Source of the DNA: Eledone cirrhosa
Lineage: Eukaryota
Assembly (NCBI GenBank): GCA_964016885.1
Contig: OZ024741.1
Location: 300,080,001-300,144,000, forward strand
DNA length: 64,000 bases
Direction: 5' to 3'
A program made the position numbers and the translations under genes. The notes beneath the pieces were generated by a model. That model was not told the DNA's origin. It did no database searches and saw nothing but the letters and a program-made list of their open reading frames with translations. Positions 23,362 through 59,799 of this stretch are shown one piece after another; within the stretch, counting starts at the first letter, position 1; the number at the start of each line of letters is the position of its first letter.

Positions 23362-24191
23362 GAGTGGAACAAGTAAACATTAAACAATTTTTTAGATAAT
23401 TTAAAATACGATTTAAAAATGCACCTGTTCTAGTGCTGTGACCGACGGTTTCGCTTATCAAAAGATTGGAAATTCAGAGAATTTCCAATGGAAAGAATCA
23501 GCTCTTCAGACAGCTATTTCCAAACCACAGGGCATAAAGCCTCGTGGCTAGTAAATATATCGCTTTCTGCCCAATGTATGAGGTCAGGCCGTTAAAGTGA
23601 CACACACATAAATAGGCCGTAAGAAAAAGATATATATGTATGTGTGTTTGTGTGTATATATATATGTATTTATAGATATGTATGTATATATTTGTTTAGA
23701 TATATTTTTATTTATGTATGCATGTGTTTGTGTATATATATGTTTGTATATATGTTTATATATGCGTGTATGAACTTACGTATATGATAATTTGTATGCG
23801 TGTGTTAATTTCTTATTGCGTGAGTGTGTGCGCACGCATATGTGTACGTATGTACTTGGGTTGTGTATCTTTGAAATTCATTTATTCATTGTATTTTGTT
23901 GTATGTGTATGCATGTGGATGTGTGTGTTTTTGCATGTATGTATGTGTGTTTATATATGCGTGTGTGTATGTGTGTGTGTATATGTGTTTATATATGAGT
24001 ATATATAGGTAAATGAATACACATGTGTGTGTATGTGTACGTATATCTATTTTATAAATATATATACACATATATATGCGTGCGTGTTTGCATGTGCGTA
24101 TAGGTATATATGTATGTTTATGTATATGTGTGTATGTATGTATATATATATATATATAGTTAAAAGAATAGAGGTGTAACACACAAGTTAT

Positions 24192-32644: not shown

Positions 32645-35041
32645 TCATCCCTTGAATCGCAAGAATGTTTTGCATATTTTGAAGGTGCCAGCTATCGCAG
32701 CCATTTGTAGACTATGAATTAGGGAGCTGCGCTTTTTGTCCGCAAATCCAAGTTCGGTCATACTTTGGTCCAAGCGGGTTGGTATATAACCCGTAGCACC
32801 AATAATGATGGGTATGAAGCTAAAGGTGTATCTTGGATACTGGATTTGTAAGCTCCTCATCAATGGTCCGTAGATGTCCTCCTTCTCCTGTATTTTTCTG
32901 ACAACGTTTACATCAAGTGGGCAGCTGATCTCCACAACAGAACACGTTTTCAATGTGTGGTCCCAAACTACAATATCAGGCCGGTTGTGCTTTAATTTGG
33001 TGGCAGTTTTTATTTTCAGGTTCCACCAGTATTCCTTAGTGCCATCTGTCTCAATATATTCTTCCTCATTTGTTGTTAATTTTGTTTTCCGAAGTGCGTT
33101 CCAGATAGTTCTAGCTATCCCATCGTGTCTCATGGGGAGGTAGTAGCGAGATGACATTCTTTCGCAGCTGGCAACAATGTGGCTTACATCCTCGATCTTT
33201 GTTTTACATAGCCTACATTTATTGTCAGCTGCTGGCCCTCCTCTTTTGTGCAGCAGATATTTGGTAGGGAGTTCTTGTTCCTGTATTGCATAGAGATATC
33301 CCTCAAGGTGTGATGTCATAAACTTGTCGGAACTCCATGCCAGGCTTTTTGAGTGGTTTATCCCCTCTATGGTCTGTGTTTTACGCCTCAAGTATCCATG
33401 CACAACTTTCTCTGTAAATTGGTCAATTTTTTTTTCTTGTTTGAACATTGAATAGGATCTTCCGATTTCTCTGGGTGAGAGATTTATATCAGGCTTTATT
33501 CCATATCTCTCCTCCAGATCAGTCGCTATTCTAATGATATTTCTTTTTTCATGCTCATAAACCTGAGCAAGATGGTCGCCAACCTTTTTCCTCTGTTGAA
33601 GGTGTTGCTTCAGTGTTACTATCCGGGTCTCATATGTTGTTAATATTGATTTTAGACCCCGGCCACCTTCCTTGCGTGAGAAGTATAGCCTATCCACATC
33701 ACCATTGATGTTAAAGTTCCCAGTAACACTGAGAAGTTTTCGAGTTCTAACATCCATCTCACTTAGTTCTTGCAATGACCAGTTCAGTAGGCCAAATGTT
33801 GGCATTAGAATTGGCACAGCATAGGTATTGTGGGCAATGTATTTGTTGTATGCTGACAGTTCTGATGACCATATTTTTTTTACTCTTCTGAGGTATTCAG
33901 TTCTGGTTCTCTCCTTATTTATGGGTCCATCATATCTGACATTCTCATCCTGTCCAAGATATCTGTAGTTGTCACCTGACTGCAGAGGTTGTATTGTCAG
34001 GCCGTTCATATCTAGATTTCTACAGGAGGGCACAGCTCTTCCACGTTTTACTTCCAAATATGCACACTTGGACTCACCAAATTTCATTTTGATGTCGGTT
34101 GAAAATTGTGTAATGAGGTCCAATTGTTTCTTGATGTCATTGATATTTGGCCCATACAACTTCAGGTCATCAACAAAGAAAAGATGGGAGATACTTCTGG
34201 GCCCACTTCTTTGTCCACCTTGTTTCCTGAGTAGGTAAGATAGTGGATTCAGTGAGAGAACGAAGAGTAGTACTGACAAGCTATCACCCTGAAAGATGCC
34301 CTTCTGGTAATGTATCCTATCAGTCTTAACCTGCTCCTTCTCACCTCTAAGGATCAAATTGGTGTACCAGTTCTTGGTCAGGCGTTCAACAGCAGCTACT
34401 AATGGTTGTGGGACTTTAGCTAACTGTAAAGCCTTAATAATCCACCCATGAGGTACACTATCAAATGCTTTTTGATAGTCCAGCCACACGACAGTCATGT
34501 TTCTGCGATTCTTTGTTGTTTTTTCCTGAATCATTTTGTTAGTTAGTAGGTGATCTATGCAACCCCACACCTCCCTCTTTCCACCAGCTTGCTCAGGTGT
34601 TATGATGTTGTTGGTAGCACAGTGATCCTGTAAGAACAGGTTAAGGCACCCAGTATATAATTTATACATGATGTTTTGGCAGGCAATTGGGCGGTAATTT
34701 TTAGCAAGGGTGGTTTGGCTATTTTGGGGAATGAGGAGAGTAGTGGCAGTTGATAACCATCTGGGCAGTTCTTGTGTGCCCTTAATGGTTTCTGTAAACA
34801 GCCGTATGAGATCTTGCCGATAGAAAGTGAAATTCTTCAACCAGTATCCTGTAATGAGGTCTGGGCCTGGCGATTTCCTATTCGACATTTTCTGTAGAGC
34901 TGTTTCCAGTATTGACCCATCTATGTCATATTGTTTTGTCTGGACATGTTGGCAGTAGTCCTGTTCCAGTTGTCTTAGTTCAATTAGCTTGTCTGTTGAA
35001 TCCGTCATCCGTTTCCCATACAGATCTCCAGTAGTTCTCAA
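32645..35041 (-). CDS. R4/Dong ORF C-terminal part: RT, zinc knuckle, restriction-like endonuclease
   Basis: KSPGPD, NYRPIAC, DYQKAFDSVPH, GIFQGDSLS, FVDD, YRYLG, CRLC..H..C, RHD, RPDIVVWD..VEISCP..EK. Confidence 0.92.
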   Translation of the reverse strand: MRTTGDLYGKRMTDSTDKLIELRQLEQDYCQHVQTKQYDIDGSILETALQKMSNRKSPGPDLITGYWLKNFTFYRQDLIRLFTETIKGTQELPRWLSTATTLLIPQNSQTTLAKNYRPIACQNIMYKLYTGCLNLFLQDHCATNNIITPEQAGGKREVWGCIDHLLTNKMIQEKTTKNRRNMTVVWLDYQKAFDSVPHGWIIKALQLAKVPQPLVAAVERLTKNWYTNLILRGEKEQVKTDRIHYQKGIFQGDSLSVLLFVLSLNPLSYLLRKQGGQRSGPRSISHLFFVDDLKLYGPNINDIKKQLDLITQFSTDIKMKFGESKCAYLEVKRGRAVPSCRNLDMNGLTIQPLQSGDNYRYLGQDENVRYDGPINKERTRTEYLRRVKKIWSSELSAYNKYIAHNTYAVPILMPTFGLLNWSLQELSEMDVRTRKLLSVTGNFNINGDVDRLYFSRKEGGRGLKSILTTYETRIVTLKQHLQQRKKVGDHLAQVYEHEKRNIIRIATDLEERYGIKPDINLSPREIGRSYSMFKQEKKIDQFTEKVVHGYLRRKTQTIEGINHSKSLAWSSDKFMTSHLEGYLYAIQEQELPTKYLLHKRGGPAADNKCRLCKTKIEDVSHIVASCERMSSRYYLPMRHDGIARTIWNALRKTKLTTNEEEYIETDGTKEYWWNLKIKTATKLKHNRPDIVVWDHTLKTCSVVEISCPLDVNVVRKIQEKEDIYGPLMRSLQIQYPRYTFSFIPIIIGATGYIPTRLDQSMTELGFADKKRSSLIHSLQMAAIAGTFKICKTFLRFKG

Positions 35042-36155
35042 CCTGTTCTTTTGAAGGGGTGTCGTTTACAGGGATTGAGCTTTTGCCACCGAAGCTGCGA
35101 TAAACTGATTTAGGATCTCTGGCAAACAATCTATTTAGCACTTGTCGTTTATGGGCTGTTGACTTATATTTTAGTCTTTCTGTTGTAGCTGTGAGTTGTT
35201 GTTTCAACTGGTGTAATTTGGAGTTCAAAGTTTTTAATTTGGTATCTCCAAATCGTCTCTCTAACTTTTTCTTTAGGTCTTCCTGGTGTCGTGTGAAGTT
35301 TCTCTCTATGTTGCATTTCATAACGACTGCGATGTGTGAGATACTTCGTCTCAGGGACAAAATTTTGGTTTTTAAATTTCGCATCCACGCTGGTTCAGGC
35401 TTTCTGTTTGTATCTTGATTGCATGGTTTTAGATGTGTGTTATATGATAGCAATGTGACAGCTGAAACATATAACAAAACATTGAGCGTTTCAAATGTCG
35501 TTTCTACACCTTTAGATCGTATAGCCTTCAGATAATTGCCAGCTATTTCGTTCACCGCTTCCAATTCCAATTTAGTGGGTTCTTTACTGACTCTAGTGTT
35601 GTATGGTCTGTCACTCACATTAAGGCTGTGTATCTCTTGAAACATATCGTTCCATATCACTTGTAGGGTGCCCACAAGTTTTTGGTGCTCTGTTTGTTCA
35701 GTAGAGTCATGAATTGCAGCCTCGTTGTTGATGTGGTGACAATTACTACTAGAGTCAGCTGACCTTTCTCGCTGTTCTTCAGTGGAAGTGGGATGGATTT
35801 CAGCAAAATTGTTGGTGAGCTGTTCACTGTTAGATTTAGCTGGCCATTCTCTTTGTCTGTCAGTGGAGGTGGGGTGGTTGTCTACAAGGGCTGTATTTGT
35901 AGTATCACTCGATTCCGTTAGATGTATCAATTTACATCTAATGATACGTTTTGCCTGTTCATTTAGATGCTTTGGAGAAAAGTCTAATTCTGGGTGTTTG
36001 GAGTTCCATAAAGTTTTTAGCCTTTGCATAAAACCGAACTTTTGGGGTTCAGATTGTTTGTATGCTTCATATAATTCTTTGTTAAGCTCGTAGCTCCACT
36101 GTATACAACGGTTGTAATTGCGATTTGGTCGAAGGAGACTTGTACTTTTTGCCAT
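34980..36155 (-). CDS. R4/Dong ORF N-terminal part (joined to RT by one frameshift at ~34980)
   Basis: W..ELN..Y..S.P...G...RL...W N-terminus, P.W..NL, N.LF..DP..VY, P....V..YW..VW motifs upstream of the RT. Confidence 0.8.
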   Translation of the reverse strand: MAKSTSLLRPNRNYNRCIQWSYELNKELYEAYKQSEPQKFGFMQRLKTLWNSKHPELDFSPKHLNEQAKRIIRCKLIHLTESSDTTNTALVDNHPTSTDRQREWPAKSNSEQLTNNFAEIHPTSTEEQRERSADSSSNCHHINNEAAIHDSTEQTEHQKLVGTLQVIWNDMFQEIHSLNVSDRPYNTRVSKEPTKLELEAVNEIAGNYLKAIRSKGVETTFETLNVLLYVSAVTLLSYNTHLKPCNQDTNRKPEPAWMRNLKTKILSLRRSISHIAVVMKCNIERNFTRHQEDLKKKLERRFGDTKLKTLNSKLHQLKQQLTATTERLKYKSTAHKRQVLNRLFARDPKSVYRSFGGKSSIPVNDTPSKEQVENYWRSVWETDDGFNRQAN

Positions 36156-37539
36156 GATGAGTTCGTCTATTCACTAATATTTTGTATTTATTTTTTTTAA
36201 ATAGTCGATGATCTTCTTTAAAAGTTACGACAAAGTTCTGTCAGAATCAAATTTAAAGTTATTCACAGCTTGGGTAATATTTCTTTTCAGTTAGTTTTTA
36301 ATTCTACAACTGTGTTTTAAACGTTGTTCTTGAATCGTTTGAATCGAGAACAAAAAGAACCGATACTTAGTATATTCCTTTACGAATGTAATATAATATA
36401 ACAACGCTGTATTTATATGTTAAAGTTTATGTATCATTCATATAAATAGGTGTTCTACAACATATTCACAACATTCACAGTTCAAACACTTATATTTTTG
36501 CTTCTGAATCGAAAACGTTACTTTTATATTTCTTTATAAATGTAATATAACAACGTTGCATTTATATGTTAAAGTATATGTATCGAGTTGGTTACTTATG
36601 TTTGACGTGTAGCAGGCGGATTCTGTTTTGTGTGTGTGTATGTATGTATGTATGTATGTATGTATGTATTTTGTGTGTATGTATGTATGTATGTATGTAT
36701 GTATGTATGTATGTATGTATGTATTTTGTGTGTATGTATGTATGTATGTATGTATGTATGTATGTATGTATGTATGTATGTATGTATGTATGTATGTATG
36801 CCTAGGATGCTAATTAGTGAAATTGAATGTGAAAAGATGTAAGTTGAAAGTAATTAAAATGAATTCTAACAGATAGACATAAGAAATGTTTAAATTCTTG
36901 GCGTTATGAAATTTCTTCATATCAATATAATTTTCCGTTTCATTTAAACCCTGATAGATATAGTCGAGGACAATTAGACGTATTTGCAATTCAATAGTGA
37001 TATGTTATATGAGCTTCAAGAATTTGCAAGGAATCTTATTGAATACATTTTCTCAATATATATATATAAACTAATACATAAGCAGTACGCTGATTTAGTG
37101 AAATGGATGAATTGTTTAGCATTTAATTATTAGAGCAACCCCCACCAACTTTATTCTCCATGTTTTATTTCCTTATAGACGTAAGCAGTAAATGCCGTCT
37201 AATTTCATAAAACAAAGTCAGATTTTGTATTATCACTGATTATTTGGGTGATAGCAAAATGAAAGGAAAAATAGATAACAATAATCGTATTACCCTGTCT
37301 AGGAACAGTACTTAAAATATAAGAATACAAAGAATCATTTATTTTATAGGACAAATTAAATGTATGCATAGTTTCGTTCTATTTGAGAATATCTATTATT
37401 TTGTTTGATATTATTGTATACACACTTGTCTCTCATTGTCAGACAATATTTCACTGCAATTAACCTCACCATCTTGCAGGACTGTTTCGTAATTAATTAA
37501 GTGATGGAGATTATTTAGCTTCTAGACATATCTCATGAA

Positions 37540-38480: not shown

Positions 38481-38623
<143 letters not shown>

Positions 38624-38706
38624 GGAGGTGAGTTTTATTGTAGTACAATAAAGCAATGCAGATATCGGATAAGAAGCACTCTACAGTTTGTGGGACTGGA
38701 TTATGC

Positions 38707-41700
38707 ATAATATAAGATCAAAAGATGGTTAAAGGAGTTCCATATATTTTATTATGCGCATTTCAAAAACAAACATCATCAAGCAATAATATTTGTGTTT
38801 TCATCAGATAAAACAGGAGAACATGATATGAAGGCTAAAAAAAACTTGTGGATAGTGCAGTTTTAAATCAACATATGAAAAATGGTTTTAGATTGATGTG
38901 TGATATTGGGAAAAATATTTTATTTAGAGAGGGGGGGGAGGATGAAAGGGGAGGAGATGAGAGGGAGAGATGGGTGATAGAGAGAAAGAGATAGTTTTTA
39001 TAACTGAGAGGAGATATATTTTTTACATAGAGAGGTTGAAAACCGTTGGAAGATACTGTATAAATTAAAAATTTTGAAAATTAACGAAGGGAGGATATGT
39101 GCGAGGAAAAATATTTTATTTAGGGAGGGGTGGGAGGATGAAAAAAAGGGGGGAGGAGATGAGAGTGAAGGTGGAGAGGGAGAGATGGGTGATAGAGAGA
39201 AAGAGATAGTTTTTATAACTGAGAAAAAGATATATTGTTTTAATATAGAGAGGTTGGGAACCGTTGGAAGATAATGTATAAATTAAAGGAATTTGAAAAT
39301 TAACGAAGGGAAATTATGTATGAAGATAGAGAGAAAAAAATAATAATTGTGGGTGAATATTCTAACGTCAAAAGAAGAAATGTATGTATTGTGGCAATTT
39401 CAAAATTAGCGAAGAGAAAAATTGTTAAGGTTTGTGTGTAGAAGGATTTGAGAAAAATAATGTGAAGTTAAAGTGTGTATATGATATGTGCGAATAAAGA
39501 GTTAATATGTATTAATAATGAGTTCGTTGATGGGGAGAAAAAAATAATAATAAATTAAGGATGAAATTGAGATTAAAAAGATTTATGATAGAGAGAAAAA
39601 ATAATAATGATTGCGGATGAATATTCAAATGACAAAAACAAATGCTATGATTTTACGAGAAGATAGAATGAGGGTAATGAGTAAACGAGTATTATAGAGT
39701 GTATAATGCCCTTTAAAGTAAGGTAGATGGGTATATTTTAAAGAGGTGTATGTATATGTGCCTTTGAGAAAAGATTCTAAATTGATAAAGAATTGAACAT
39801 TAACTGTATACTTTATGAAAAGTTCTATGGAATGTATGCAGGCAGATAGAAAACAAATCTGAGCGTCTATTTATTATAGAATCTAGGTTAGAGATAATGG
39901 TAAATTTTTCATTTAGGCAGAGATTACAGATTTTAGATAGAGAGCTGTTCAAGTATGAGGATGCAGAAGAAATCTTCTTCCAAAAGATGGTATATTTAAT
40001 GTTTTTGTCTTTTAAGGACCATATGAGTTGTGAGAGAGCAGTGTTAGTTCTTTTAAGTTTGTATTTGAAAGATGAATGATGATTATAGAGACAAGCTTTA
40101 AAAGAGGTGGAAGTGGAGCCAAAATAGGTGAAGGAATTGGTGCTAGTTATAATTTTACATTCATAAATTAAGTTTTTATCGAGGCAATGGTTGTTGAGAG
40201 GACATTTATTTTTAATGCGGCAGTTGCAATTAGAGAGATTATTAATGAGTGATCTAGTGTTATCTATAGAAGGAATTGGATTGGAGAAGTTGTTTGCGAT
40301 AGGAATAATAGGAATAATAGTTTCTTGATTTAGAGTTGCATTATGAACATTTAGCGAAGTTGTGTTTGACGTTGTATTTGGGTTTACAGAAGTTAGCCTA
40401 GGGTTTACAATGACGTCGTAAAAGAACTAACACTGCTCTCTCAGAACTCATATGGTCCTTAAAAGACAAAAACATTAAATATACCATCTTTTGGAAGAAG
40501 ATATCTTCTGCATCCTCATACTTGAACAGCTCTCTATCTAAAATCTGTAATCTCTGCCTAAATGAAAAATTTACCATTATCTCTAACCTAGATTCTATAA
40601 TAAATAGACGCTCAGATTTGTTTTCTATCTGCCTGCATAAATTCCATAGAACTTTTCACAAAGTATACAGTTAATATTCAATTCTTTATCAATTTAGAAT
40701 CTTTTCTCAAAGGCACATATACATACACCTCTTTAAAATATACCCATCTACCTTACTTTAAAGGGCATTATACACTCTATAATACTCGTTTACTCATTAC
40801 CCTCATTCTATCTTCTCGTAAAATCATAGCATTTGTTTTTGTCATTTGAATATTCATCCGCAATCATTATTATTTTTTCTCTCTATCATAAATCTTTTTA
40901 ATCTCAATTTCATCCTTAATTTATTATTATTTTTTTCTCCCCATCAACGAACTCATTATTAATACATATTAACTCTTTATTCGCACATATCATATACAAA
41001 CTTTAACTTCACATTATTTTTCTCAAATCCTTCTACACACAAACCTTAACAATTTTTCTCTTCGCTAATTTTGAAATTGCCACAATACATACATTTCTTC
41101 TTTTGACGTTAGAATATTCACCCACAATTATTATTTTTTTCTCTCTATCTTCATACATAATTTCCCTTCGTTAATTTTCAAATTCCTTTAATTTATACAT
41201 TATCTTCCAACGGTTCCCAACCTCTCTATATTAAAACAATATATCTTTTTCTCAGTTATAAAAACTATCTCTTTCTCTCTATCACCCATCTCTCCCTCTC
41301 CACCTTCACTCTCATCTCCTCCCCCCTTTTTTTCATCCTTTCCACACCCCTCCCTAAATAAAATATTTTTCCTCGCACATATATCCTCCCTTCGTTAATT
41401 TTCAAAATTTTTAATTTATACAGTATCTTCCAACGGTTTTCAACCTCTCTATGTAAAAAATATATCTCCTCTCAGTTATAAAAACTATCTCTTTCTCTCT
41501 ATCACCCATCTCTCCCTCTCATCTCCTCCCCTTTCATCCCCCCCCCTCTCTAAATAAAATATTTTTCCCAATATCACACATCAATCTAAAACCATTTTTC
41601 ATATGTTGATTTAAAACTGCACTATCCACAAGTGTTTTTTAGCCTTCATATCATGTTCTCCTGTTTTATCTGATGAAAACACAAATATTATTGCTTGATG

Positions 41701-41770
41701 ATGTTTGTTTTTGAAATGCGCATAATAAAATATATGGAACTCCTTTAACCATCTTTTGATCTTATATTAT
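38707..41770. mobile_element. Neptune-type PLE 3' end with ~1.35-kb near-perfect inverted duplication
   Basis: 38707-40055 is the reverse complement of 40419-41770; minus strand ~39800-40235 encodes CNCRIKNKCPLNNHCLDKNLIYEC..YFGST..CNLCLNEK..INRRSDL..CLH. Confidence 0.9.
41662..41732 (+). ncRNA. Type I hammerhead motif (mirror copy 38745-38815, minus)
   Basis: tgttttat-CTGATGA-aaacacaaatattatt/gatgatgtttgttttt-GAAA-tgcgca-TA-ataaaata; palindromic stem III. Confidence 0.75.
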
Positions 41771-42134: not shown

Positions 42135-42966
42135 ATATGAAGGCGTATATGAAGATGTATAGCTGTAAACACAGTCGATTACTATAAATAATACCTAAGG
42201 ATATAGGTTCCAAGCCACCAGAAAGTGGCCTGTGGTCGCTACGAAGGATTTACCTTCGTACCTCTGAAATCCCGGCTGAGCGCTATTTATTTTTGAGTAA
42301 AAAGAGCCCTAAACATCATCACGAATAAAAATATGAATGAAGATGCCCCATAGAATTCAGAATAATAGAGTATTTGATTAATTCTCCAGTTATTTTATCC
42401 TAACAATAGAGAAATAACCTTAAAACGTGCGCCACTATAGACTTTTTCCTTTTCATGTTTCCCGTGAGTTGGAAGGTCAGATGAAGCTGTATTATTCGCT
42501 GTTGACCGCCACAACGCTTTCGTTATCAAGTTCTGAGTTACGCAGTTGAAATATAACGCGTTGAATCTGCCTCTTCATTCTCCATCCATTTGTTTCTAGT
42601 ATTCTTTTCTATCTTCCTGTTTCTTAATTTAAACATTATAATAATTACTCTGCATTTAAGACTACATAGTTAAAACATTAGACCACATAGTTGAAAACAA
42701 ATATCTACCACAGGGCTAACTTGTTTACAATGCATGTAGATAGTAGATTAAATTTATCAAATTTGTTTAGTGCTTATTCATGAGTTGAATACGTTTTCAT
42801 TTTAACAAAAGCCTTTGGTCTACAATATGTGAATAGGGCTTCCAATTTACTACCATTTGAAATTACAGTTTGTTTATAACAGATGTATAAATGTATATAT
42901 ATATGTCCCAAGGCTCTGATACCATCAACACTATAAACAGAGAGCTGTCATATCTAAGAACTACTA

Positions 42967-43022
42967 ACTGCCTGATGAGGTCATAGCCATTCAATGGCTA
43001 TCATCGAAATATATATAGCAGT
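42967..43022 (+). ncRNA. Type I hammerhead motif in a ~165-bp insert between (TA)n tracts
   Basis: actgc-CTGATGA-ggtcatagccat-tca-atggctatcatc-GAAA-tatata-TA-gcagt. Confidence 0.8.
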
Positions 43023-43065
43023 AAATAAAGGATTATGAGTTCATGCAATATTGACTTATGTTTCG

Positions 43066-43094
<29 letters not shown>

Positions 43095-43103
<9 letters not shown>

Positions 43104-43612
43104 TGTATATATAGTGTATTCTGCAATATCAGCTTTATCTCCGCCTGTTTTGCTGAAAATTTAAAGTAAGTGAGACTGTCACTACACTAAAACAATAGCA
43201 TAAGGTCTTCGAAATGCTTTTAATTAAGCATACAGTGTATTACAAAATACACTATATATACATTCATATATACATAGCTATTTCAGAGCGTCAATTCTAA
43301 TTTTCAATTTCTGCTTGACCGGCAACCGCTCTGTACAATCAGTTCCTGATTATTACTAGAAATTCTATAAGAATCAAACATTCATGATTTTCAGCAAACA
43401 GGTGGGGTTTGATAAGTACCAATCAGTACGAATCATAGCTGTGTCAGCTTTATTTCCCACTGTTTGCTGAAAATTTGAAGTAAGTGAGACTGTCACTACT
43501 CTAAAACAATAGCATAAGGTCTTCGAAATGCTTTTAATTAAGCATACAGTGTATTGCAAAATACACCTTATATACATTCATATATATAGCTATTTCAGAA
43601 CGTCAATTCTAA
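43095..43612 (+). mobile_element. Non-coding 315-nt-period tandem unit with short 5' inversion
   Basis: 43129-43302 repeated at 43444-43612; 43095-43128 is the reverse complement of the unit's internal tattgca..atacactatatatacattcat; contains GAAA-tgctt..aagca-TA-cagt. Confidence 0.65.
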
Positions 43613-43621
43613 TATATATAT

Positions 43622-44575
43622 ATATAAATGAAAGTTAGAGTTAATAACTCTTACTGAAACCCTGTAATCAATAAGCTCCAAGTATAAATACTGAGCATTA
43701 TAATAATAATATATATGTAGTAAGAAACACAGTAAACCGTGTGTCTAATATTACGAGGGTTGAAAGACTACATTTGTTTGAAATATCTAACCATGAAGCA
43801 GACAGAATGATAAAATAAAATAAAATTATATTATGCAAACCGCCTCAATAACAATTACATCTCTCGGACAGATTAGGGATAATCTGTTTCGCCCTGAGTG
43901 TGATTGTAACAGATAATCCTGGGCATCATCAGCGAGAGATTCTGATTAAATGCGACAAACACCTCCTACCAACGTTCACACAGAAAGATGAATTTATCAC
44001 CTCGTGCGCCATAAGTCAAAAGTGGTATGAGTGTATTGGTTAGAAACAACAGTCCAACACACGCAACATAATAAGCTTAATATACATATACATCATTATT
44101 ATAATGTTCAGTATTTATACTTGGTGCTTATTGATTACAGGGTTTCAGTAAGAGTTATTAACTCTAACTTTCATTTATATTTCGGCTCCCTCATGAGGTG
44201 AGCTTATTAAGTTGCGTGTGTTGGACTGTTGTTTCTAACCAATGCACTCATACCACTTTTGACTTATGGTGCACGACTGGATAAATTCATCTTTCTGTGT
44301 GAACGTTGGTACTAGGTGTTTGTCGCATTTAATCAGAATCTCTCGCTGATGATGCCCAGGATTATCTGTTACAAACATACTCAGGGCGAAACAGATTATC
44401 CCTAATCTGTCCGAGAGATGTAATTGTTATTGAGGCGGTTTGTATAATATAATTTTATTTTATTTTATCATTCTGTCTGCTTCATGGTTAAATATTTCAA
44501 ACAAATGTGGTCTTTCAACCCTCGTAATATTAGACACACGGTTTACTGTGTTTCTTACTACATATAGATTATTAT
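43622..44575. mobile_element. Inverted pair of circularly permuted ~475-nt non-coding hammerhead monomers (retrozyme-like)
   Basis: Left arm is A(43622-43707)+B(~43700-44077); right arm is rcA(44095-44180)+20 nt+rcB(44201-44575); (TA)n flanks. Confidence 0.85.
44338..44419 (+). ncRNA. Type I hammerhead ribozyme with complete stems (mirror copy 43859-43940, minus)
   Basis: atctctcg-CTGATGA-t-gccc...gggc-GAAA-cagatta-tccc-taatctg-TC-cgagagat; 8-bp stem I, 7-bp stem III; predicted GUC cleavage after 44411. Confidence 0.9.
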
Positions 44576-44647
44576 ATATATATATATAAATTGAAACAAA
44601 ATGAAAACGAAATATATACATGCATACTTACATATATATATATATAT

Positions 44648-46430
44648 TTATTAAAATAACAGATTAAAGTTTAAGAAAAGAATCGCTGCTTTCACCCTTA
44701 ACGGGATCTTCTGAAACTAACAAAGTCAATCTGTAAACGCAGAAGTGGATATTTTAAAAAACGTTACAATCGGAGGAAGACAGGAAGACGATAGTTTGGT
44801 TCGCGGAAACGTTCCCTGGCAAAGAACGGGAAAAAACGAATATAATACGTCATTAATAGGAGCGGTGAAAAACAATTACGCGCAAAGACAGAACCACGTT
44901 TATGGTATAAAAGAAGTCATAGACTAATGTTCTCTTAGGTGGTGCATAGAAACGTTCTCTGGCAATGAACAGAAAAAAACGAAGATAATACGTCATATGT
45001 GGAGCGTGGAGACAATTGCACGCAACGATAAAACCACGGAAATGGTATAGCTGAAATCGTAGACTAAAATTCTAACTAGGAAACCGAATGAATCTCTGCT
45101 TCAGAGTTAAGAATAAAGTAAATAAAATACAATACAGAGGTAATAGAAATTAAATAAATACATACACACATGCAAATACGTACATACACAAGCATACGCG
45201 AAAACACTTGCCATAGGTATACAAAACCACGCACATATAAATATGTGTGTGTGTGTGTGCGTGTATACAAATAAATAAATAATTAAATAAACGTATATAA
45301 ATAACTAAATACGTATATAACAAGCGCACACACATATCTACATGTAAATACACAAATGTTCGGAGACGTAAGTCAACCAAAACATGCAGTACACATATAC
45401 ACACACCCTACATACGTACGAACCTGCATACTCACACAGACGCAATCTCCCGTATACACTTAACCAAACCATATGTACAAGAATATATTTAAAAATATAC
45501 GCCATAACATATACAATCAAATATACGTACGAGAAAGTATCCGTACCTTCACAAAACATACAGGTAATATATACTTACCTATGCAAATAAGTAATGGTAT
45601 AAACAAAACATATACTTAGCTACCACATCTAGACGTAAAATATTCACGTATAGATTGTACTATCCGTCAGTGTATAACGTGGGGCTGTAATACAGGAAAG
45701 TTTTGTGCAATTTATGTTTACAAGCCGGAATTGTCTCAGATTTTTTGTTTAATATGCAATAAAAACACAGGTAAAAAGGTTATAAGCAAGGTGTACAATG
45801 CAGGAGTCAATACAGTCAATAAGGCATGCATGAGGAAAGAGTTACAATGTAGTTGAAATAAACATATTTTGTGTGGGGTATTAAAGGATGTTATAATTGT
45901 TATAAATGTTTAAGATTGTGTGCAATTTGTTAGAGAGGCATGTAGTGATAATGTAGGTATATGTTATGTAAGGTGTAATGCAAAGCACGTGATAGAGTTG
46001 GATATGTCACTTTCATTTCAGTGTTTTTGTGTTGTAGTTCGTATGTATGTGTATGTTTTGTTTGTTACTCACAGCTATTAACCATGGGATTATTTTGAGT
46101 AGTTTATAGTCAATAGGTGTTTGTTTGTTAAATGTAAATTCCGCCGAATTACTGGCCATGTTGTTATTGTAGGTATATTATTTTATGCATTTTTTATCTA
46201 CAAATTATCTTTTCTAGGGTTTGTAGTAACCGTTACTAAGCTGTTGGTAAACCGTTAGGTTGCTTAATCTTTTTTGCTTGTGCTTTTTAATTATAACTAT
46301 TACACTTCCAACCAGTGGTGCATGTAATTGTGTTCTTTCAAGCAGAACATCTTTTTAATTCCTGACTCTCCACATGATGCCTATAATACTAACAACAATT
46401 ATGTACCCTAAATGTCCTAAATGACTAGGA
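44648..46430 (-). pseudogene. Decayed Neptune-type PLE 3' region
   Basis: LNKKSETIPACKHKLHKTF at ~45690-45755 (minus), resembling the LNxRSE..CxH C-terminus; 3' end matches window positions 1-180. Confidence 0.5.
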
Positions 46431-46639: not shown

Positions 46640-46645
<6 letters not shown>

Positions 46646-49199
46646 ATACTTTGGGAGGGTCATGTTGCCAATAAGAAACACACGCACCAGTTGCTTTCAC
46701 TTCAATTTATTATATATTTATAAATTTATAAATTTATAAATCTATAAATTTCTGGTTGGTTGGTTGGTTCCACAACCAGATAGTTGTTTATATATAGTCA
46801 TAGTTCTTTCGTCACACACTCTGTGACCTCTTCAGTGACTGGGGATTCCTTTCTTTGTTTCTGTGCCTCTCCTTTGTTCTGTCCTACGCCATTTTGTTTC
46901 TGTGTGTGTGTTGTGTGCTCAGTCTGCGCATGCGCCACATCCGGGTGTATGTGTGTGTTTATGTTCATTTATTTATTTGTTTATTTACATTTTACTGGTT
47001 AGTTGTTTGTTCTATGTGTGTGTGTGTTTTCATTTTGTCCTTAATTGTAAGTTGTGATGTTGCTGTTCCACTCATATTTTCTATTTAATTTTAGTTGTAA
47101 TTCTTTTATGTTTATTGCCTCTGTAATTTGTCTAAACATTGCGTTTTTTCTGTGTGTAGATTCTATTTTTATTTCTATGTTCTCTAATTTACCCTTGTGT
47201 TCTATCTTAGCATGTTGGTAGAGTACAGATGATTCTTTATTATCTTGAAGGTCTCGCCAGTGTTCATTTATCCGTACCCCTACACTACGAGCTGTCTCAC
47301 CTATGTACACTATATTTTTGTCTCTACATTGTCCTTCAGTACATCTTATGCTATACACTACATTTCTAGTTTTACAGTTAATCTGGAGGCTTATTTTACA
47401 GGTTATACATTTCTTATCTATACATGGGGGTCTTTGAAAAGGGTATGTCTTGCTAATAAGTGTTGTTTTTACGGAGGTACCTGGTCTTTCTACTATCTTA
47501 ATATTGAGTTTATGTTTATTTAGGGCCCTTCTAAATTTGTAAGCTAATTCACCTCTAGGGGTTGTATTGATGAACATTACACTCTGGTATTTATTGCTAT
47601 CATACCATGAGTTTATTCTATTAGCCTTGTTCCTAGTTCTTTCTATTCAATTACAAAATTTGCTCCTATACAAGGGGCAGGTCCCATTTATGTCATTATT
47701 TACCATTTTTTCCCATTTGGTTCTGGTTGCTCTATACACTCTGATATTATCTCTCTGATTGTAGCCAGAGAACTGCATACGGTGGATGAAGTGTTGTATG
47801 TGTCTCTCTAGTTCTTCGGGGTTGCACATGCGGGACACATTTCTCATCACCCGTACCAAAACCGCAATCAGTATGTTGGTTTTGGTATGGTCCGAAATGG
47901 CCGAGTTTCGATGGATCAGATGTTTGGAAGTTATGGGTTTCGCATAATGGGAATGGAGGATTTGTTTTTTGTTGTTAATGGTATCTAACCAGAGCTCTGT
48001 GTCTAGTACAGGTAATCGATGGTTGGGGTGGTTACTTGGGTAGTCTATAGTAACTCTAATGCTCTGGTGGATGGAGTTTGCTATTTGCTGGATGCTTTCC
48101 ATTGTGTTTCTCTCTAGTTCCTGACTGTTCTCTAGTGGGGGTGTCTTAACTACGACGTTTATATCATCTACGTAGCGGGAGTACATTATCAGGGTTAAGG
48201 GGTCTTATAATTGTTCTTTAAGTTTAAGTTTAAGTCTACTGTCCCACCATACCATGAATAAGTTAGCTATGTCGCCTGCAATGCTAACACCAATGGCTGC
48301 TTCTTCCTCTTGGGCATATGTTTTTTCATTAAATTTGAACATATGTTCCTTAAGGGTTAGTTTTATGCTGGCCCCTACCGCATGTGCAATCATTTTCTTC
48401 AGTTCATCGTGGTTTTCGGGTGTCCGTATGGCTCTGGTCCACCCGTTAGATCTATCTGTGTGGGTTTTCTTGGCCATTGGGGTAATGGTAGGTGGTCTGC
48501 CTCTTGCTGGTCTTGTAGGGCACAGGTTGCTAAGGTCATATGTGTCTAGGTAACTATTACTATAGGTAAGCTTAAGTAGGATGTATTAAGCTCACTGGTA
48601 TCAATCCCACGGAACTCAACCTTGCTCTCACTGATCATTTCTACGCATTTCTCCACCGCAAAATCCACGTCAATAGATGGATACAGGGACACAACATCCA
48701 TACTGCCTATTATGCAGTTTGTTAGGTCCCCAGATCGGTTACTCACGCCGATTCTGCTGAGGAGGCCCTCCGTGCTGTCACATACATCTGGGGACATTTC
48801 AATGATGGTGCGTATGATCAGGGAGAGGAAGTAGGACAGTCTGTAGTTACTAGCAATGTTAGCTCCACAGACTGGCCGTGTTGGTGGTCCCGCGACAGGG
48901 TTACAGCCCGTTTTATGGTCTTTTCGAAGCCCATACAACGCCGGCACGTCATTGTTCCAGGCCTGGAAGTTGTTGGCATTCCTTTTGTTGGGCTGCATTA
49001 TATTCGTCCACATCACCATATGGGCATTGAGGGCTTTTTCTCTATCCTCATGCTCCTGTGGTGTTACCTCTCTTGTGTTAGTGATGTGGGGTTGAATTGC
49101 CTGGATGTAGTTTGGCAGGATGTCAACTGACATTCTGCCAGACTTGTCTGTTGGAAAGCATGCTATCTCTCCATTACGTGAGCGCTGCATGAGCTTACA

Positions 49200-49200
<1 letters not shown>
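46640..49200 (-). pseudogene. Penelope-like element (Naiad-like) RT, GIY-YIG and pseudo-LTR, several frameshifts
   Basis: PTDKSGR, LYGLRKDHK..PPTRPVC, SMDVVSLYPSI, AIGVSIAGDIANLFMVWWD, RYVDDI, LPVLD; EN C..C..C..NVVYSIRC..C..YIGETAR..R..EH..LNRKYEW. Confidence 0.9.
46796..46840 (-). ncRNA. Minimal type I hammerhead in PLE pseudo-LTR
   Basis: agtca-CTGAAGA-g-gtcaca-gagtg-tgtgac-GAAA-gaac-TA-tgact. Confidence 0.75.
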
Positions 49201-53785
<4,585 letters not shown>

Positions 53786-54913: not shown

Positions 54914-57900
54914 TTAAATGTACACAGTTTGACACAGTTCTTTGGGCCAGTGGACCCTCCGACCGGAACGGGTCGTGGTCTTGTATCTTGGTGATGGGGG
55001 AGGGGTCAAAGAAACAGGTATGTGTGCAAAAGAGAAAGATGGAGGCGTATGTGGCTCAGGTGTGTGAGCATCTGTGTGGGCCCGTTTAAGTCTATCAACC
55101 TCAATGGTCTTTCTGGATCCCTTAATGTCTACGGTGAAATGTTTAACAGAACGAGCCAACACACGATAGGGTCCAGAGTACGGTTATGTGAGATGTGGTC
55201 TTACAGCATCGTTTCTTACGAACTCCTGGGTCCACGAGGCAATATCCCTCGGGACTGTAGATTTTACAGTTTGTTTTCTCGTATCCATCGGCGGCAGGTC
55301 CTGAAAATAAGAACGCAGACGGGATACGTAGGAAAGCGGATCTTCGGCCGGGGAGAACCCAAGGTTCACCTTTATTGATGGCCGAATCCCCAACAACACA
55401 ATAGGGAGGTACTCGCTCCAATGCGTAGAGTCAGGAGAAGTCCGGAGAGCGGCTTTTAGTTGTCGGTGGAAACGCTCCACCATTCCGTTAGATGCAGGAT
55501 TATATGAAGTTGTTCTATGCGTTTAGCACCCATGATCTTCGTTAATTCGTAGAAGAGATTCGATTCAAACTGTCTTCCACAGTCCATTGTAATCGTGGTT
55601 GCCACTCCAAAGCGGGCAATCCATCCTGATACAAGGGCACGCGCTGTCGTTTCAGCAGTGATGTCTTTCCAGGGGATGGCTTCAGGCCATCGCGAAAAAC
55701 GATCAATAACAGTCAATAGATAAGTATGACCACCACTGACTGGCCAAGGTCCCACGATGTCCACATGAATGTGCCGGTAACAGGCGTCCGGTGTACTGAA
55801 CCTACCGAGCGGAGCCTTAACGTGTTTTTGGATTTTCGATTCCTGGCAAGCGATGCAGGAAAGGCCCCAAGCCGTAATATCGCGCCTCATATTTGGCCAG
55901 AAGAATCTGGCCGTTATGAGCTTTACTGTGGCAGAAGATTCTGGGTGGGAAATGCTGTGTAAAGCAAGAAACGCAGTACGACGATGGTTTAGCGGGACGA
56001 ATGGTCGCGGTGAATCCACGGAAACGTCGCAGAGAATTATTTGTCCTTCTGCAGTGGGCAATGGCAGGTATTTCAAATTACTCGTCGCAAATTCGGCTGA
56101 TGAAATATCCAACGATTCCAGTGCAGGTTGGTCTGCGGCCAAGTGATTTAAATCGATGTCGTGGGATAACGCAATCGAACTGATCGGCAATCGAGACAGG
56201 GCGTCAGCCGCTGTGTTCAATGAGCGTGGAATGTGTTGGATGTCGTTTGTGAATTGCGAGATAAAGTCGAGATGCCTTGTTTCTCTGGGCGAGTTCTTGT
56301 CGGACATTGCCCTTAAAGCGAAGGTCAAACGTTTATGGTCGGTATAGATTGTAACACACCTTCCTTCAAGCATATGTGAAAAATGTTTCACAGAAAGGTA
56401 GATGGCTAACAGCTCCCGGCCAAAGGTGCTACAGCGAGTTTCTGCAGGTTTCAACTTCCTGGAGAAAAATTCCAATGGTGTTTGGTGATCGTCACTGCTC
56501 TGTTGTAAGACTGCACCCACTGCAGTATCCGACGCATCAACAGAAAGCGAAAGCATGGCATTGGACACTGGGTGGCCCAGCAAAGATGCACTAGCCAATA
56601 CTTTTTTGAAAATCCTCGAGCTGAGTCTGAGTCAAGGAGATTTCCTTGTTCTTCTTGCGGCAATTTTTCAGAATCTCAGTAAGAGAGAAGAGTAGATTAG
56701 CACAATGCGGAACAAAACATCTATAGAAATTTATTAGTCCTAGGAATTGTCGCAACTGACGAAGTGAGGTCGGCGGAGGCAAATCCTCTATAGCCTGAAC
56801 TCGTTGAGGGAGGGGTCGAATACCCGCGGGGTCAATGACATGACCTAAAATATTCAGTGATTCCGCACCGAAAACACATTTTGTGGGATTTATTTGAACA
56901 CTGTAATCTTTGAGTCGACAAAACAAAAGATTCAAATGGCGTATATGTTCTTCTCTGGAGGAACTAGCAATAAGCAGATCATCAATATAAGTGTAGACGA
57001 AGTCTAAACCACGAGTGACCTCATCCATGAACCGTTGAAAGGTGCTAGCAGCATTCCTAAGTCCGAAAGGCATTGTAAGAAATTCGAATGATCCAAATGG
57101 AGTCGCAATGGCCGTTTTCGGAATATCTTCTTTCTTGACAGTAATCTGATGATAGGCTGCACCAAATCGAGCTTCGAGAAAATGTTACATCCCTGCAACG
57201 ACGATGCAAAATCTTGCAGGTCTGGAATGGGGTATCTATCCGGGACAGTTATAGCATTTAACTTCCTATAATCCCCAGTGGGTCTCAGTCGCCAGAAGTA
57301 TTGGGTACCATGTGTAACGGAGAAGCCCAAGGGCTCGTAGAAGGGCGAATTATGCCTAGCTGCAGCACATGGTCGAACTCGGACCGTGCTGCCTTCAATT
57401 TGTCCGCAGGCAAGCGACGAGGACGTGAAAACACTGGGACGCCAGTTGTAGAGATAAAATGCACTGTTGTGTGAGTCCGTTCCGCGACTCGAAAATTTCC
57501 CTGAGTAAGCTGTGATAAAGAATTCAACAATGCATGATAGACATTCCCAGCATTAGCGATGAAGGAGGTCAGGCTAACCATTGGAAAATTAGCTTTCTGG
57601 CCACGAAGACAAAAACCAGTAATGCCGTCTACTAGGCGTCAGACACGGACGTCCACCGTCAATGCAAAATAGTGTAGAAAATCCGCTCCCAAAATCAGAT
57701 ATGGTAGGTCAGCAACCGTAAAAATTCATTTGAATTCTCGTCGAAGATTTCTGAATTGCAGAGGAAGCGAGATGTGTCCAAAAGTCCGTATCGGTGAATG
57801 ATTGACAGCTTGTAGATTCATTGATGACTCAGGAGGAGTTTCTTTAACAAAGTTCACTGGCCAAATGCTTCAGGAGGCACTCGTATCTACGAGGAAAGAT

Positions 57901-57950
57901 CTTTCGGACAGGAGGTCCTCAGTAAAGAAGTGGCGGTTTGCATATGTAGC
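54914..57950 (-). pseudogene. pol: Gypsy pol (protease, RT, RNase H, integrase), frameshifted
   Basis: FLVDTSAS; SPWASPLH; DYRKLN..DRYPIP; [12 protein letters not shown]; DAS..VGAVL..RELLA; [31 protein letters not shown]. Confidence 0.92.
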
Positions 57951-57957
57951 ACAGAGA

Positions 57958-58755
57958 TCAGCTGCCGCTTTCAGTGACTCTGGTATGCGTTCCCCAACGT
58001 TGAATAGTTACACGGTGGCCGGCAGTGTTTTGCATTATCAGCGAAGGTGGTCTGATACCAGAACAAAGACGAATTGATGGCGGGCAAGCTGGCGTTACGG
58101 CATGAAGTCGCGAAGGACGCGAACGACTTCTTGGCCGCCTGGGAGATGGCCTACTCACCCTACATAATTTCGCGGCTTGACGCGTCAATGCGTCAATCGC
58201 CTTCAACATGGCCTCCTCGTGTGTCGAGACGGGCTGGTTCGGAAAGGTCGAAGAGGAGACAAGCGAGGTAGCTTTCCTCGAGAATTCCACAATTCGATCG
58301 GCAGACGCAGCGATCTGCTCCACTGAGTTCGAGTCCGCTATGATAGCCAATATAATCTGGACATTGATTGGCAAGCGAGAGAAAAATAGCTTTTTGATAA
58401 ATGAACTATCCTCATCGGGCGATTCACTGAGATCCCGAATGTGGCGTAAAAATTCAGTCGGCGACCTGTCGCCTAAACACTCGTCCTCCAATAATGCACG
58501 AAACCTACTTTCAGCAGAACAGCAGTTTCTCCTTAATATCTCTGTCCTCAACGAATCATACGAAAATCCGGTTGGCGGGTCCGTTATTAAATCTTTCACC
58601 GTGGAGGCGAGCGACCACGGTATACCACTAATCAAAACATTGAGTTTCTGCTCTGTTTCAATTCCATTTGCAGCAAAATATGCATCTAGTTGCGCAAACC
58701 AGAGCTTGGGATCACTGGAGAACGCATGTAAATTAGGATTACTCATCATTAGCAT
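57958..58755 (-). pseudogene. gag: Gypsy gag
   Basis: DPKLWFAQLDAYF, LGDRSPTEFLR, LFFSRLP; frameshifted C.WYQ..F...A..C..PC (CHCC-type) motif. Confidence 0.85.
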
Positions 58756-59799
58756 GTATCAGTTCCACATAAAAAAATACTAAATTATAACCAAGTAAAG
58801 AAATGCCACGCGTGTTAGATGTTTGGAACAATGGGAAAACAACGCAAATTTCCCTCGACATCCAAGAAGAAAGAAGAAAGCAAAAATCTGGTGAATTTGT
58901 AAAATCCGGAATCGACAAGTCACAACATTTCATGGCAGAAAAATTAAATATGTTTTTATTTTTATTTTCTCTCTTTAAATTGGAGGAGATGGAATCACAT
59001 GATGCGTCTCAGCCAATCAGATGGCTGCATTTCGGAGAAGAAAGACAATTGGCGGACCAGTCAGCCATTGTGAATTTTTTTTTTTTTTTTGTTAAACGAA
59101 CAATTTTCAATTTCGTTTTTTTTCGCATAGTTGCAAGAAATAAAGTATTAGTTTCGTCATCAATTTTTTTTTATATGTTGTATGTTTCTCTAGAAGTTTT
59201 TAGAAGTCTTTTAGAAGGCTGTGTAATGCATAATCAGGATCAACCACTTTAGATGACTGGTATTAGTGTATATATTACTTGCAATAATATTAAAAAGAAT
59301 ACGAATGGCTGGTGCGTGTTTGTACAATGTTTTATATTACACGAGTCAACAATAACACAATAGAAATATTTTACCACATGTCGTGATGGTGTAGTTGGTG
59401 AGTTGGTCTCGACTCCAAGACTGGAGCGTATAAAGAAGAGAGACAGACGACAGGGGTCATCTCTTCATAGGCAGAAGTCAGCTCCAAAATTATGCGTCTT
59501 GTTCTTCTTCGGAAATAGACGCCGGTGTGTGTATTATTTTGGTGACGTCAGTTTGTGACGTCAGAGCTATGTGCAGGAAACTCTGCATAGCTCTTACATG
59601 CCATGTCTCGCTTCGCTACAGCCTCGTTACGGTCTGAGTTTAAATCCCACCTAAGTTAGCTTTGCCTTTCATCCTTTTATGGGGTCTATAAAATAGGCAC
59701 CTGTAATGCACTGGGGTCGATTTATTCGAAGTTCCTTTCCCCTTCAAACTGTTAGCCTTGTGCCTAAAGTTGAAACAATTATTATTATTGACCGATGTG

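What the first reader, a model, noticed from the sequence alone, without database searches (positions are those of the whole stretch)
43622..44575. Circularly permuted ~475-nt hammerhead RNA inserted as an inverted pair: candidate retrozyme/circular RNA replicon
Seen: both arms are the same non-coding monomer in different register (minus arm reads B-A, plus arm reads A-x-B), in (TA)n. Each arm carries a full type I hammerhead with 8-bp stem I, 7-bp stem III and a GUC site. Known: non-LTR retrozymes in metazoans are non-coding hammerhead repeats that give circular RNAs and are thought to use PLE RT. Inference: the permuted junction is what a circular or multimeric RNA template would give. The stable stem III means it could cleave as a monomer, unlike minimal PLE HHRs.
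Basis: partly seen in the sequence, partly recalled or inferred. Interest (0 to 1): 0.85.

Follow-up and report, generated by a model that had tools for sequence, protein, structure and literature searches.

The report
Hammerhead retrozyme riding Penelope-like retrotransposons
This is one insertion of a roughly 475-base non-coding repeat family that carries a hammerhead (self-cutting RNA) motif and lands as head-to-head pairs with two fixed ends, the same footprint as the Penelope-like jumping genes of this genome, so it is likely a retrozyme copied by their enzyme from a predicted circular RNA.

Summary
In detail: two 96%-identical arms of a 476-nt non-coding unit in different register, each with a complete type I hammerhead, inserted in (TA)n. 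The unit belongs to a family of probably several hundred loci with 450-490-nt subfamilies and tandem arrays. The register is not a random permutation. In 207 loci, 310 of 344 arms end at one of two UA-rich sites about 85 nt apart, and 5' ends vary. In 101 of 104 inverted pairs with two such ends, one arm uses each site. Coding Penelope-like elements (PLEs) here do the same (11 of 11), the known one-sided PLE 'tail'. No coding parent was found. Arms read through the cleavage site (4 of 209 passes stop there), so the template was circular or uncleaved. Two loci join a retrozyme arm head-to-head with a Neptune-like PLE arm, which hints at the driver. Cleavage, circles and expression are untested. 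Verdict: a new member of the known non-LTR retrozymes, useful as a test system for PLE mechanism; 'replicon' is unsupported. The scan had no look-alike by sequence; by words it noted analogous PLE-type insertions in other genomes.

The parts
43612..43621 (.). left (TA)n target remnant; boundary with the arm is ambiguous by a few bases
   Evidence: sequence
43622..44077 (-). minus arm, 5'-truncated, m119->476->98; its 3' end is the distal (D, tailed) site
43859..43940 (-). type I hammerhead of the minus arm; predicted cleavage between 43867 and 43866; active fold 4.2 kcal/mol above the minimum
44078..44082 (.). 5-nt filler at the head-to-head junction, next to a 6-nt palindrome
44083..44579 (+). 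plus arm: one full unit (44083-44558) plus 11-21 nt, ending at the proximal (P, tail-less) site
44083..44180 (+). segment A: P site (m1-25), about 85-nt tail, D site (m90-98, 44172-44180)
   Evidence: 3' end mapping over 207 loci
44181..44200 (+). segment x (m99-118), an ordinary part of the unit
   Evidence: present in other full-length copies
44338..44419 (+). type I hammerhead: stem I 44338-45/44412-19, CUGAUGA 44346-52, extra U 44353, stem II 44354-57/44384-87, GAAA 44388-91, stem III 44391-44410, GUC 44409-11
44533..44558 (+). hairpin just 5' of the P site, shared by subfamilies (740 genome matches to a 29-nt pattern at <=1 mismatch)
44571..44588 (.). right (TA)n target remnant, merging with the P end
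   Evidence: sequence

Best explanation
The locus is one insertion of a non-coding 450-490-nt hammerhead-bearing repeat family (a non-LTR retrozyme) whose copies end at two fixed sites, and it is likely copied in trans by the reverse transcriptase and endonuclease of a Penelope-like element from a predicted circular RNA. Shown: unit, family, ends, architecture, read-through of the cleavage site, absence of a coding frame. Inferred steps: (1) a copy longer than one unit is transcribed; (2) two hammerheads cut out a monomer that is ligated to a circle; (3) the PLE endonuclease opens both strands of a (TA)n tract; (4) the two target 3' ends prime cDNA at the UA-rich sites P and D, one each; (5) both cDNAs stop at random, often after more than one turn, and join head-to-head by short homology or filler. 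Long arrays partly grew later by unequal exchange. The best candidate driver is the abundant Neptune-like PLE.
For: 3' ends: D 162, P 148, other 34 of 344 arms in 207 loci. TA run follows 119 of 123 D ends and 104 of 117 P ends (162 loci). Of 119 tail-out pairs, 101 are P+D, 3 P+P, 0 D+D, 15 have a non-canonical end; the pattern holds in all six selection groups. Coding Neptune-like PLE pairs: 11 of 11 tailed on one arm. In 34 of 76 two-piece pairs the P arm is too long to be a fold-back copy of the D-arm cDNA, and arm lengths are uncorrelated (rho -0.02). Stops at the cleavage site: 4 observed against 3.2 expected, 4 of 209 passes. 99 of 344 arms exceed one unit; among loci picked only by 3'-proximal patterns, 24 of 76 have such an arm. 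16 arms carry tandem hammerheads at 424-487 nt spacing. Arms of one locus are closer to each other than to other loci (mean quantile 0.115, n=55; second against first pass 0.148, n=55). Circular fold z -2.1 (window unit) and -4.4 (L080 unit). Longest stop-free frame in the plus arm is 63 aa. Hybrids L132 (PLE arm tailed + retrozyme P end) and L189/L190 (PLE arm tail-less + retrozyme D end). PLE family: 10,677 candidates, open frames up to 1,407 aa.
Against: No cleavage, circle or expression data. The hammerhead stems show no compensatory change in 12 aligned copies; they are simply invariant. Lower divergence in the hammerhead is significant in 1 of 3 subfamily contrasts (p 0.0014, 0.086, 0.21) and is biased by selection patterns. 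Read-through and more-than-unit length fit an uncleaved transcript of a homogeneous array equally well (L170 has 457-nt units with 0 differences between the last two passes). The hybrids are 2 of 95 free 5' ends (46 without a TA run), could arise by deletion between neighbouring insertions, and a third join (L047) is with another PLE family. The unit has no detectable similarity to the Neptune-like element (best E 0.017 for the window unit, 24 nt). 5' ends in register within 10 nt are in mild excess (10 of 90, expected 5.0, p 0.025), so some pairs may form by fold-back.
Confidence: 0.72

Rival explanations
1. Same family and PLE-type insertion, but the template is a linear uncleaved read-through transcript of tandem source arrays. 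The hammerhead is slow, blocked or vestigial and no circle is needed.
For: Homogeneous arrays exist (L170 about 7 units, L080 5.6 units). L080 units 2 and 4 are identical and units 2-5 share a stem II change absent from unit 1 and the inverted arm, which points to DNA-level expansion. In circles of L080 and L170 units stems I and II are predicted blocked (P 0.01), and loop II holds a mimic of the stem III 3' strand. Li et al. saw cleavage in only 1 of 9 tested elements (bioRxiv 10.64898/2026.07.22.740005, Results read).
Against: The active fold is the minimum-energy local fold in 4 of 7 copies tested and within 0.7 kcal/mol in the window's plus copy. Subfamilies 79-87% identical keep the core and stems. 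A multimer offers several P and D sites, yet P+P or D+D pairs are 3 of 104.
Confidence: 0.17
2. The unit is the terminal repeat or a deletion stump of a coding PLE that my sampling missed or that is extinct, and the copies are ordinary truncated ends.
For: The layout tail - 5' part - hammerhead - P end mirrors a PLE without its ORF (L224). Li et al. found 24 of 57 Xenopus retrozyme families homologous to TEs, nearly all PLE termini (Results read). Only part of the family was sampled (207 loci; 740 matches to one motif).
Against: The unit closes on itself seamlessly in 99 arms. Of 83 free 5' ends, the only one joined directly and in sense to a PLE was L047, through a short shared word into another family's 3' UTR; 12 further free ends gave no such join to the PLE library. 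No 3' continuation into a PLE ORF start was seen at 34 non-canonical ends. No similarity to other PLE ends in the masked loci.
Confidence: 0.07
3. A viroid-like RNA replicon that copies itself RNA-to-RNA and is only occasionally integrated.
For: Size, circular fold and several subfamilies that differ by many indels.
Against: No hammerhead on the antisense strand of the unit. Antisense folds are weaker (z -1.5 and -2.0). Hundreds of genomic copies explain persistence without RNA replication.
Confidence: 0.04

Closest known systems
Metazoan non-LTR retrozymes (Cervera and de la Pena 2020, PMC7229834; Li, Clavereau and Pollet 2026, bioRxiv 10.64898/2026.07.22.740005)
   Same: Non-coding, AT-rich unit with a type I hammerhead that has a real stem III; monomers, dimers and multimers; self-paired predicted circle; co-occurs with coding PLEs.
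   Different: Unit 450-490 nt, above the 170-400 nt given for invertebrates but inside Li's 51-972 bp. Stem III is 8 bp against about 2 bp described there. Most copies are dispersed 0.1-1.7-unit insertions with inverted arms, two fixed ends and (TA)n targeting, which the parts I read of these papers do not describe. No PLE parent found, unlike many Xenopus families. Cleavage and circles are not shown here.
Endonuclease-bearing Penelope-like elements with inverted pLTR and one-sided tail (Arkhipova et al. 2013, PMC3846280; Craig et al. 2021, PMC8557442)
   Same: 5' truncation, partial tandems, inverted 5'-truncated arm, tail at one end only, microsatellite targeting, tail continuing into the next unit.
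   Different: No ORF. Tail about 85 nt against 30-40 bp in the papers (coding PLEs in this window have about 60 and about 90-95 nt). Hammerhead is full, not minimal.
Non-autonomous Chlamys PLEs such as MRC1 (PMC8557442, passage)
   Same: Non-coding PLE dependants with head-to-tail insertions.
   Different: Those resemble autonomous families at the 3' end and are tied to a clade that mostly lacks hammerheads; this unit has a hammerhead and no matched autonomous 3' end.
Viroids and viroid-like circular RNAs
   Same: Size, hammerhead, predicted self-paired circle.
   Different: Genome-encoded, ribozyme on one strand only, no evidence of RNA-to-RNA copying.

Membership tests
non-LTR retrozyme | type I hammerhead with canonical core in the unit | tested here: met
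   no Rfam hit
non-LTR retrozyme | head-to-tail units, at least two consecutive hammerheads | tested here: met
   16 arms in 162 loci, spacing 424-487 nt. Met by the family, not by this locus, whose two hammerheads face apart.
non-LTR retrozyme | non-coding, low GC | tested here: met
   longest stop-free frame 63 aa in the plus arm; no tRNA; surrounding 2-kb bins 32-34% GC
non-LTR retrozyme | no LTR, PBS or PPT | tested here: inconclusive
   no LTR-like layout in 207 loci; PBS and PPT not searched
non-LTR retrozyme | self-paired predicted circle | tested here: met
   z -2.1 and -4.4, 1 and 0 of 40 shuffles as stable
non-LTR retrozyme | self-cleavage in vitro | not testable with these tools
   folding only
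non-LTR retrozyme | circular RNA accumulates in tissue | not testable with these tools
   no RNA holder listed
non-LTR retrozyme | loop 1 - loop 2 tertiary contacts | not tested
   not examined
non-LTR retrozyme | target-site duplication longer than 4 bp, when present | tested here: inconclusive
   ends merge with (TA)n
autonomous Penelope-like element | ORF with RT and GIY-YIG endonuclease between the repeats | tested here: not met
PLE-type integration footprint | inverted 5'-truncated arm, tail on one end, microsatellite target | tested here: met
   119 of 207 loci tail-out; 101 of 104 canonical pairs use both sites; same in 11 of 11 coding PLE pairs
viroid-like replicon | ribozyme on both strands or evidence of RNA-to-RNA copying | tested here: not met
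   no antisense hammerhead in the both-strand scan; RNA copying itself could not be tested

The most novel reading that the evidence does not exclude
A parentless 475-nt ribozyme circle has two dedicated UA-rich priming sites, each behind a hairpin, and is inserted by twin priming from both strands of a (TA)n break by the Neptune-like PLE protein. The hybrid loci record single events with one arm from the retrozyme RNA and one from the PLE RNA. That would be genomic evidence naming the enzyme that moves an animal retrozyme, and it would explain the PLE tail and inverted repeat as products of two-site priming on a circular template rather than of self-priming on an antisense RNA.
Probability: 0.35. 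Interest if true: 0.75.

Novelty: new member of a known kind. Interest (0 to 1): 0.52.

Why it matters
How animal retrozymes move, and how PLEs make their inverted repeats and one-sided tails, are both stated as open in the papers read (PMC7229834 Discussion; PMC8557442 passages; PMC3846280 passages; Li et al. 2026 Discussion). This family is short, non-coding and abundant, leaves the full PLE footprint, and sits beside a PLE with long open frames. It therefore offers a minimal template for a PLE priming assay, with clear predictions: priming at P and D, one each, and read-through of a ligated hammerhead. The class itself is known, so the gain is mechanistic rather than a new kind of element.

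Tried and rejected
Rfam: no hammerhead family matched. RNA evidence: no RNA holder listed. The three runs of unrecorded kind laid on the plus arm are contigs that show unit-to-unit and strand-change joints, but they cannot show expression, ends or circles. A pile-up of 5' ends at the cleavage site seemed visible by eye but failed the hazard test (4 against 3.2; m326-345 12 against 9.4); the lowest bin was m351-364 (p 0.005 before correction for 34 bins). A dimeric-circle reading of the alternating variants in L080 was dropped for later unequal exchange. Pure fold-back from a D-primed cDNA was rejected as the general route. Covariation: none to count, the stems are invariant, so no covariance model was built. 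The stem III loop differs as UCCC or GGGA, which is a loop inversion and can arise without selection. Search for a coding parent: PLE protein hits near 30 of 119 loci were, on inspection of distances and TA spacers, neighbours in shared (TA)n targets, apart from L047. Pfam and solved-structure searches with the full PLE frame L224 gave nothing useful; the Atlas gave RT and GIY-YIG clusters at 0.96-0.98. Literature searches that returned no retrozyme paper with these features: 0 papers; 0 papers; most subscription papers are not in the library and bioRxiv supplements were closed, so Li et al.'s family tables were not seen. Scan notes by sequence and by place were empty.

Full report
OBSERVATION. 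The described structure is in the sequence. Two inverted matches of 375 and 98 nt at 96% make up the locus. Taking 44083-44558 as a 476-nt unit (m1-m476), the minus arm 43622-44077 reads m119->476->98 and the plus arm 44083-44579 reads m1->476->about 11-21, with a 5-nt filler between them and TA runs outside. Each arm has a type I hammerhead: 8-bp stem I, CUGAUGA, one extra U, 4-bp stem II, GAAA, 8-bp stem III counting the A-U pair, and GUC. An unpaired base before stem II is reported for PLE hammerheads and some canonical ones (PMC4209133, passages). Rfam did not detect the motif. The plus copy folds as a hammerhead (z -2.5); the minus copy's best fold is different.

FAMILY. The window lies in a 3.0-Gb genome. 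A DNA search gave 1,710 candidates, 40 scored. Pattern counts: 51, 58 and 154 for three window-type words, 740 for the hairpin before the P site, 212 for a sister hammerhead word and 115 for a third variant, each with 0 control matches. Loci carry one to several matches, so several hundred loci is my estimate. I analysed 207 distinct loci. Dropped before counting: 27 duplicate loci, further duplicates among L241-L271, L190 (an extension of L189) and the PLE loci L210-L225. L099, five tandem copies of one insertion, was counted once. Sister subfamily B (L080, 472 nt) matches the window unit at 391 of 476 positions, has an extra A instead of U, and its stem III loop is the reverse complement of the window's. 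Other subfamilies lie at 80-88%. Sixteen arms have tandem hammerheads 424-487 nt apart. The longest arrays are about 7 units (L170) and 5.6 units (L080); the variant pattern in L080 points to later unequal exchange. The plus arm has no stop-free frame above 63 aa and no tRNA gene.

ENDS. Of 344 arms, 162 end at site D (m98), 148 at site P (m4-25) and 34 elsewhere. A TA run follows 119 of 123 D ends and 104 of 117 P ends. 5' ends are spread over the unit. 119 loci are tail-out inverted pairs, 87 single-orientation, 1 tail-in. Among the pairs, 101 have one P and one D end, 3 have two P, none has two D, and 15 have a non-canonical end (binomial p 7e-20 at the 78 to 3 stage). All six selection groups show it. 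This is the one-sided 'tail' and inverted 5'-truncated arm described for PLEs (PMC8557442 and PMC3846280, passages). The control in the same genome agrees: 11 of 11 tail-out pairs of a coding PLE carry the tail on one arm. A second coding PLE in the window (38621-41766) shows it by eye.

TEMPLATE. A self-cleaved linear monomer would begin at m330. Arms do not stop there in excess: 4 observed against 3.2 expected, and 4 of 209 passes (162 loci). 99 of 344 arms exceed one unit. That figure includes 37 loci picked for full length; among 76 loci picked only by 3'-proximal patterns, 24 have such an arm. Both arms of a locus, and both passes of one arm, are closer to each other than to other loci (mean quantiles 0.115 and 0.148, n=55 each), which fits one source variant per event but may also reflect subfamily structure or conversion. 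The unit folds better than shuffles as a circle (z -2.1 window, -4.4 L080). The template was therefore a ligated circle, as proposed for PLEs and shown for other retrozymes (PMC4209133, passages; PMC7229834, end of Methods, Results and Discussion read), or an uncleaved multimer. Genomic data do not separate the two. The near absence of same-site pairs favours a template with one P and one D site, but coding PLEs show the same rule, so it may be a property of the protein.

HOW THE PAIR FORMS. A fold-back of D-primed cDNA needs the P arm to lie inside the D arm. In 34 of 76 two-piece pairs, including the window's, the P arm is longer than that allows, and arm lengths are uncorrelated. Two primings, one from each target strand, fit better (inference). 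A mild excess of junctions in register (10 of 90, expected 5.0, p 0.025) could come from fold-back in some events or from two cDNA ends annealing at palindromes. Arkhipova et al. 2013 proposed self-priming on an antisense template and called for further tests (passages).

DRIVER. No coding parent was found. Free 5' ends numbered 83 in 181 loci plus 12 in 26 more; 46 lacked an adjacent TA run. Two join head-to-head and without spacer to a coding PLE arm: L132 (PLE arm with tail, retrozyme P end) and L189/L190 (PLE arm without tail, ending about 15 nt short of its usual end, retrozyme D end). Both obey the one-of-each rule, but two cases are weak, and deletion between neighbours can give the same picture. 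L047 joins in sense to another PLE family's 3' UTR through a short shared word. L097 and L207 have PLE ends nearby with a spacer and were not counted. The candidate family has 10,677 first-look candidates. Copy L224 has a 1,240-aa frame with RT motifs, a CX4CXXC linker and a GIY-YIG motif between two hammerhead-bearing repeats; the window's fragment has a weak Pfam GIY-YIG hit (E 9e-4, below the curated cut-off) and the Atlas lists RT and GIY-YIG clusters. 'Neptune-like' rests on the linker motif (PMC8557442, passages), without a tree. 'Hydra-like' for the other family is a recalled label. The unit shares no significant sequence with the Neptune-like element.

RIBOZYME. In 185 copies the core words are kept in 175-178 and GUC in 176, with selection bias. 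Stems are invariant in 12 aligned copies, so there is no covariation. The active fold is the minimum-energy local fold in 4 of 7 copies, 0.7 kcal/mol above it in the window's plus copy and 4.2 above it in the minus copy. In circles of two B-type units stems I and II are predicted blocked, and loop II carries a conserved mimic of the stem III 3' strand. These could keep a circle from re-cleaving (inference). Cleavage is untested, and Li et al. found it in 1 of 9 elements.

COMPARISON AND NOVELTY. The element meets every sequence-level criterion of non-LTR retrozymes that gave a clear result; the RNA-level ones are untested. It is not an autonomous PLE. That animal retrozymes depend on PLEs is proposed in PMC7229834 and argued from distribution and phylogeny in bioRxiv 10.64898/2026.07.22.740005 (Abstract to Discussion read; 'tail' and 'priming' have 0 occurrences and 'inverted' occurs only in a reference; supplements not seen). 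Searches showed no paper that describes two-site ends, inverted arms or PLE hybrids for a retrozyme, within a library that lacks most subscription journals. PMC7761336 was seen as passages; the other listed papers only as listings. Earlier scan notes describe analogous PLE-type insertions in other genomes, none by sequence.

VERDICT. New member of a known kind; interest 0.52. Best explanation 0.72, uncleaved linear template 0.17, stump of a missed coding PLE 0.07, RNA replicon 0.04.

Noticed in passing
window 42905-43069: Short insertion between TA runs with a minimal PLE-type hammerhead (42967-43022, +, palindromic stem III); probably the stump of another PLE family.
   Followed up: no
window 43070-43613: Element directly left of the finding with a 170-nt direct repeat at 314 nt spacing and an inverted piece; it has a GAAA-stem-UA arrangement but no intact CUGANGA. 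A relative abuts the retrozyme in L070.
   Followed up: partly
window 46643-50489: Neptune-like PLE with RT and GIY-YIG fragments, inverted arms, hammerheads at 46840 (-) and 50229 (+), and a tail of about 60 nt on the right arm only.
   Followed up: yes
window 38621-41766: Second coding PLE as an inverted pair of GIY-YIG-like 3' ends with hammerheads at 38815 (-) and 41662 (+) and a tail of about 90-95 nt on the left arm only.
   Followed up: partly
window 44644-45760: 3' end of a further PLE family on the minus strand just right of the finding; the same family's 3' UTR is fused to the retrozyme in L047. No hammerhead was found in it by the scan.
   Followed up: partly
L005, L008, L012, L029, L037, L041, L074, L119 (around m10-23): A SINE-like repeat has inserted repeatedly at the P site of the unit, a hot spot. 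From recall it resembles an octopod SINE; untested.
   Followed up: no
L099:3508-4466: A two-arm retrozyme stump (195 nt with its TA flank) repeated five times in tandem, a minisatellite born from one insertion.
   Followed up: partly
family-wide, m317-320: The stem III loop occurs as UCCC, as its reverse complement GGGA, or deleted to a short palindrome (7 copies), with the stem unchanged.
   Followed up: partly
window 32645-36170 (-): Near-intact non-LTR retrotransposon with an 806-aa frame, Pfam RVT_1 and zf-RVT.
   Followed up: no
window 55456-58783 (-): Broken LTR-retrotransposon-like frames (gag-, RT-, RNase H- and integrase-like by recalled motifs).
   Followed up: no
window 23435-23514 (-): Another hammerhead-like motif with a long stem II, next to a microsatellite.
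   Followed up: no
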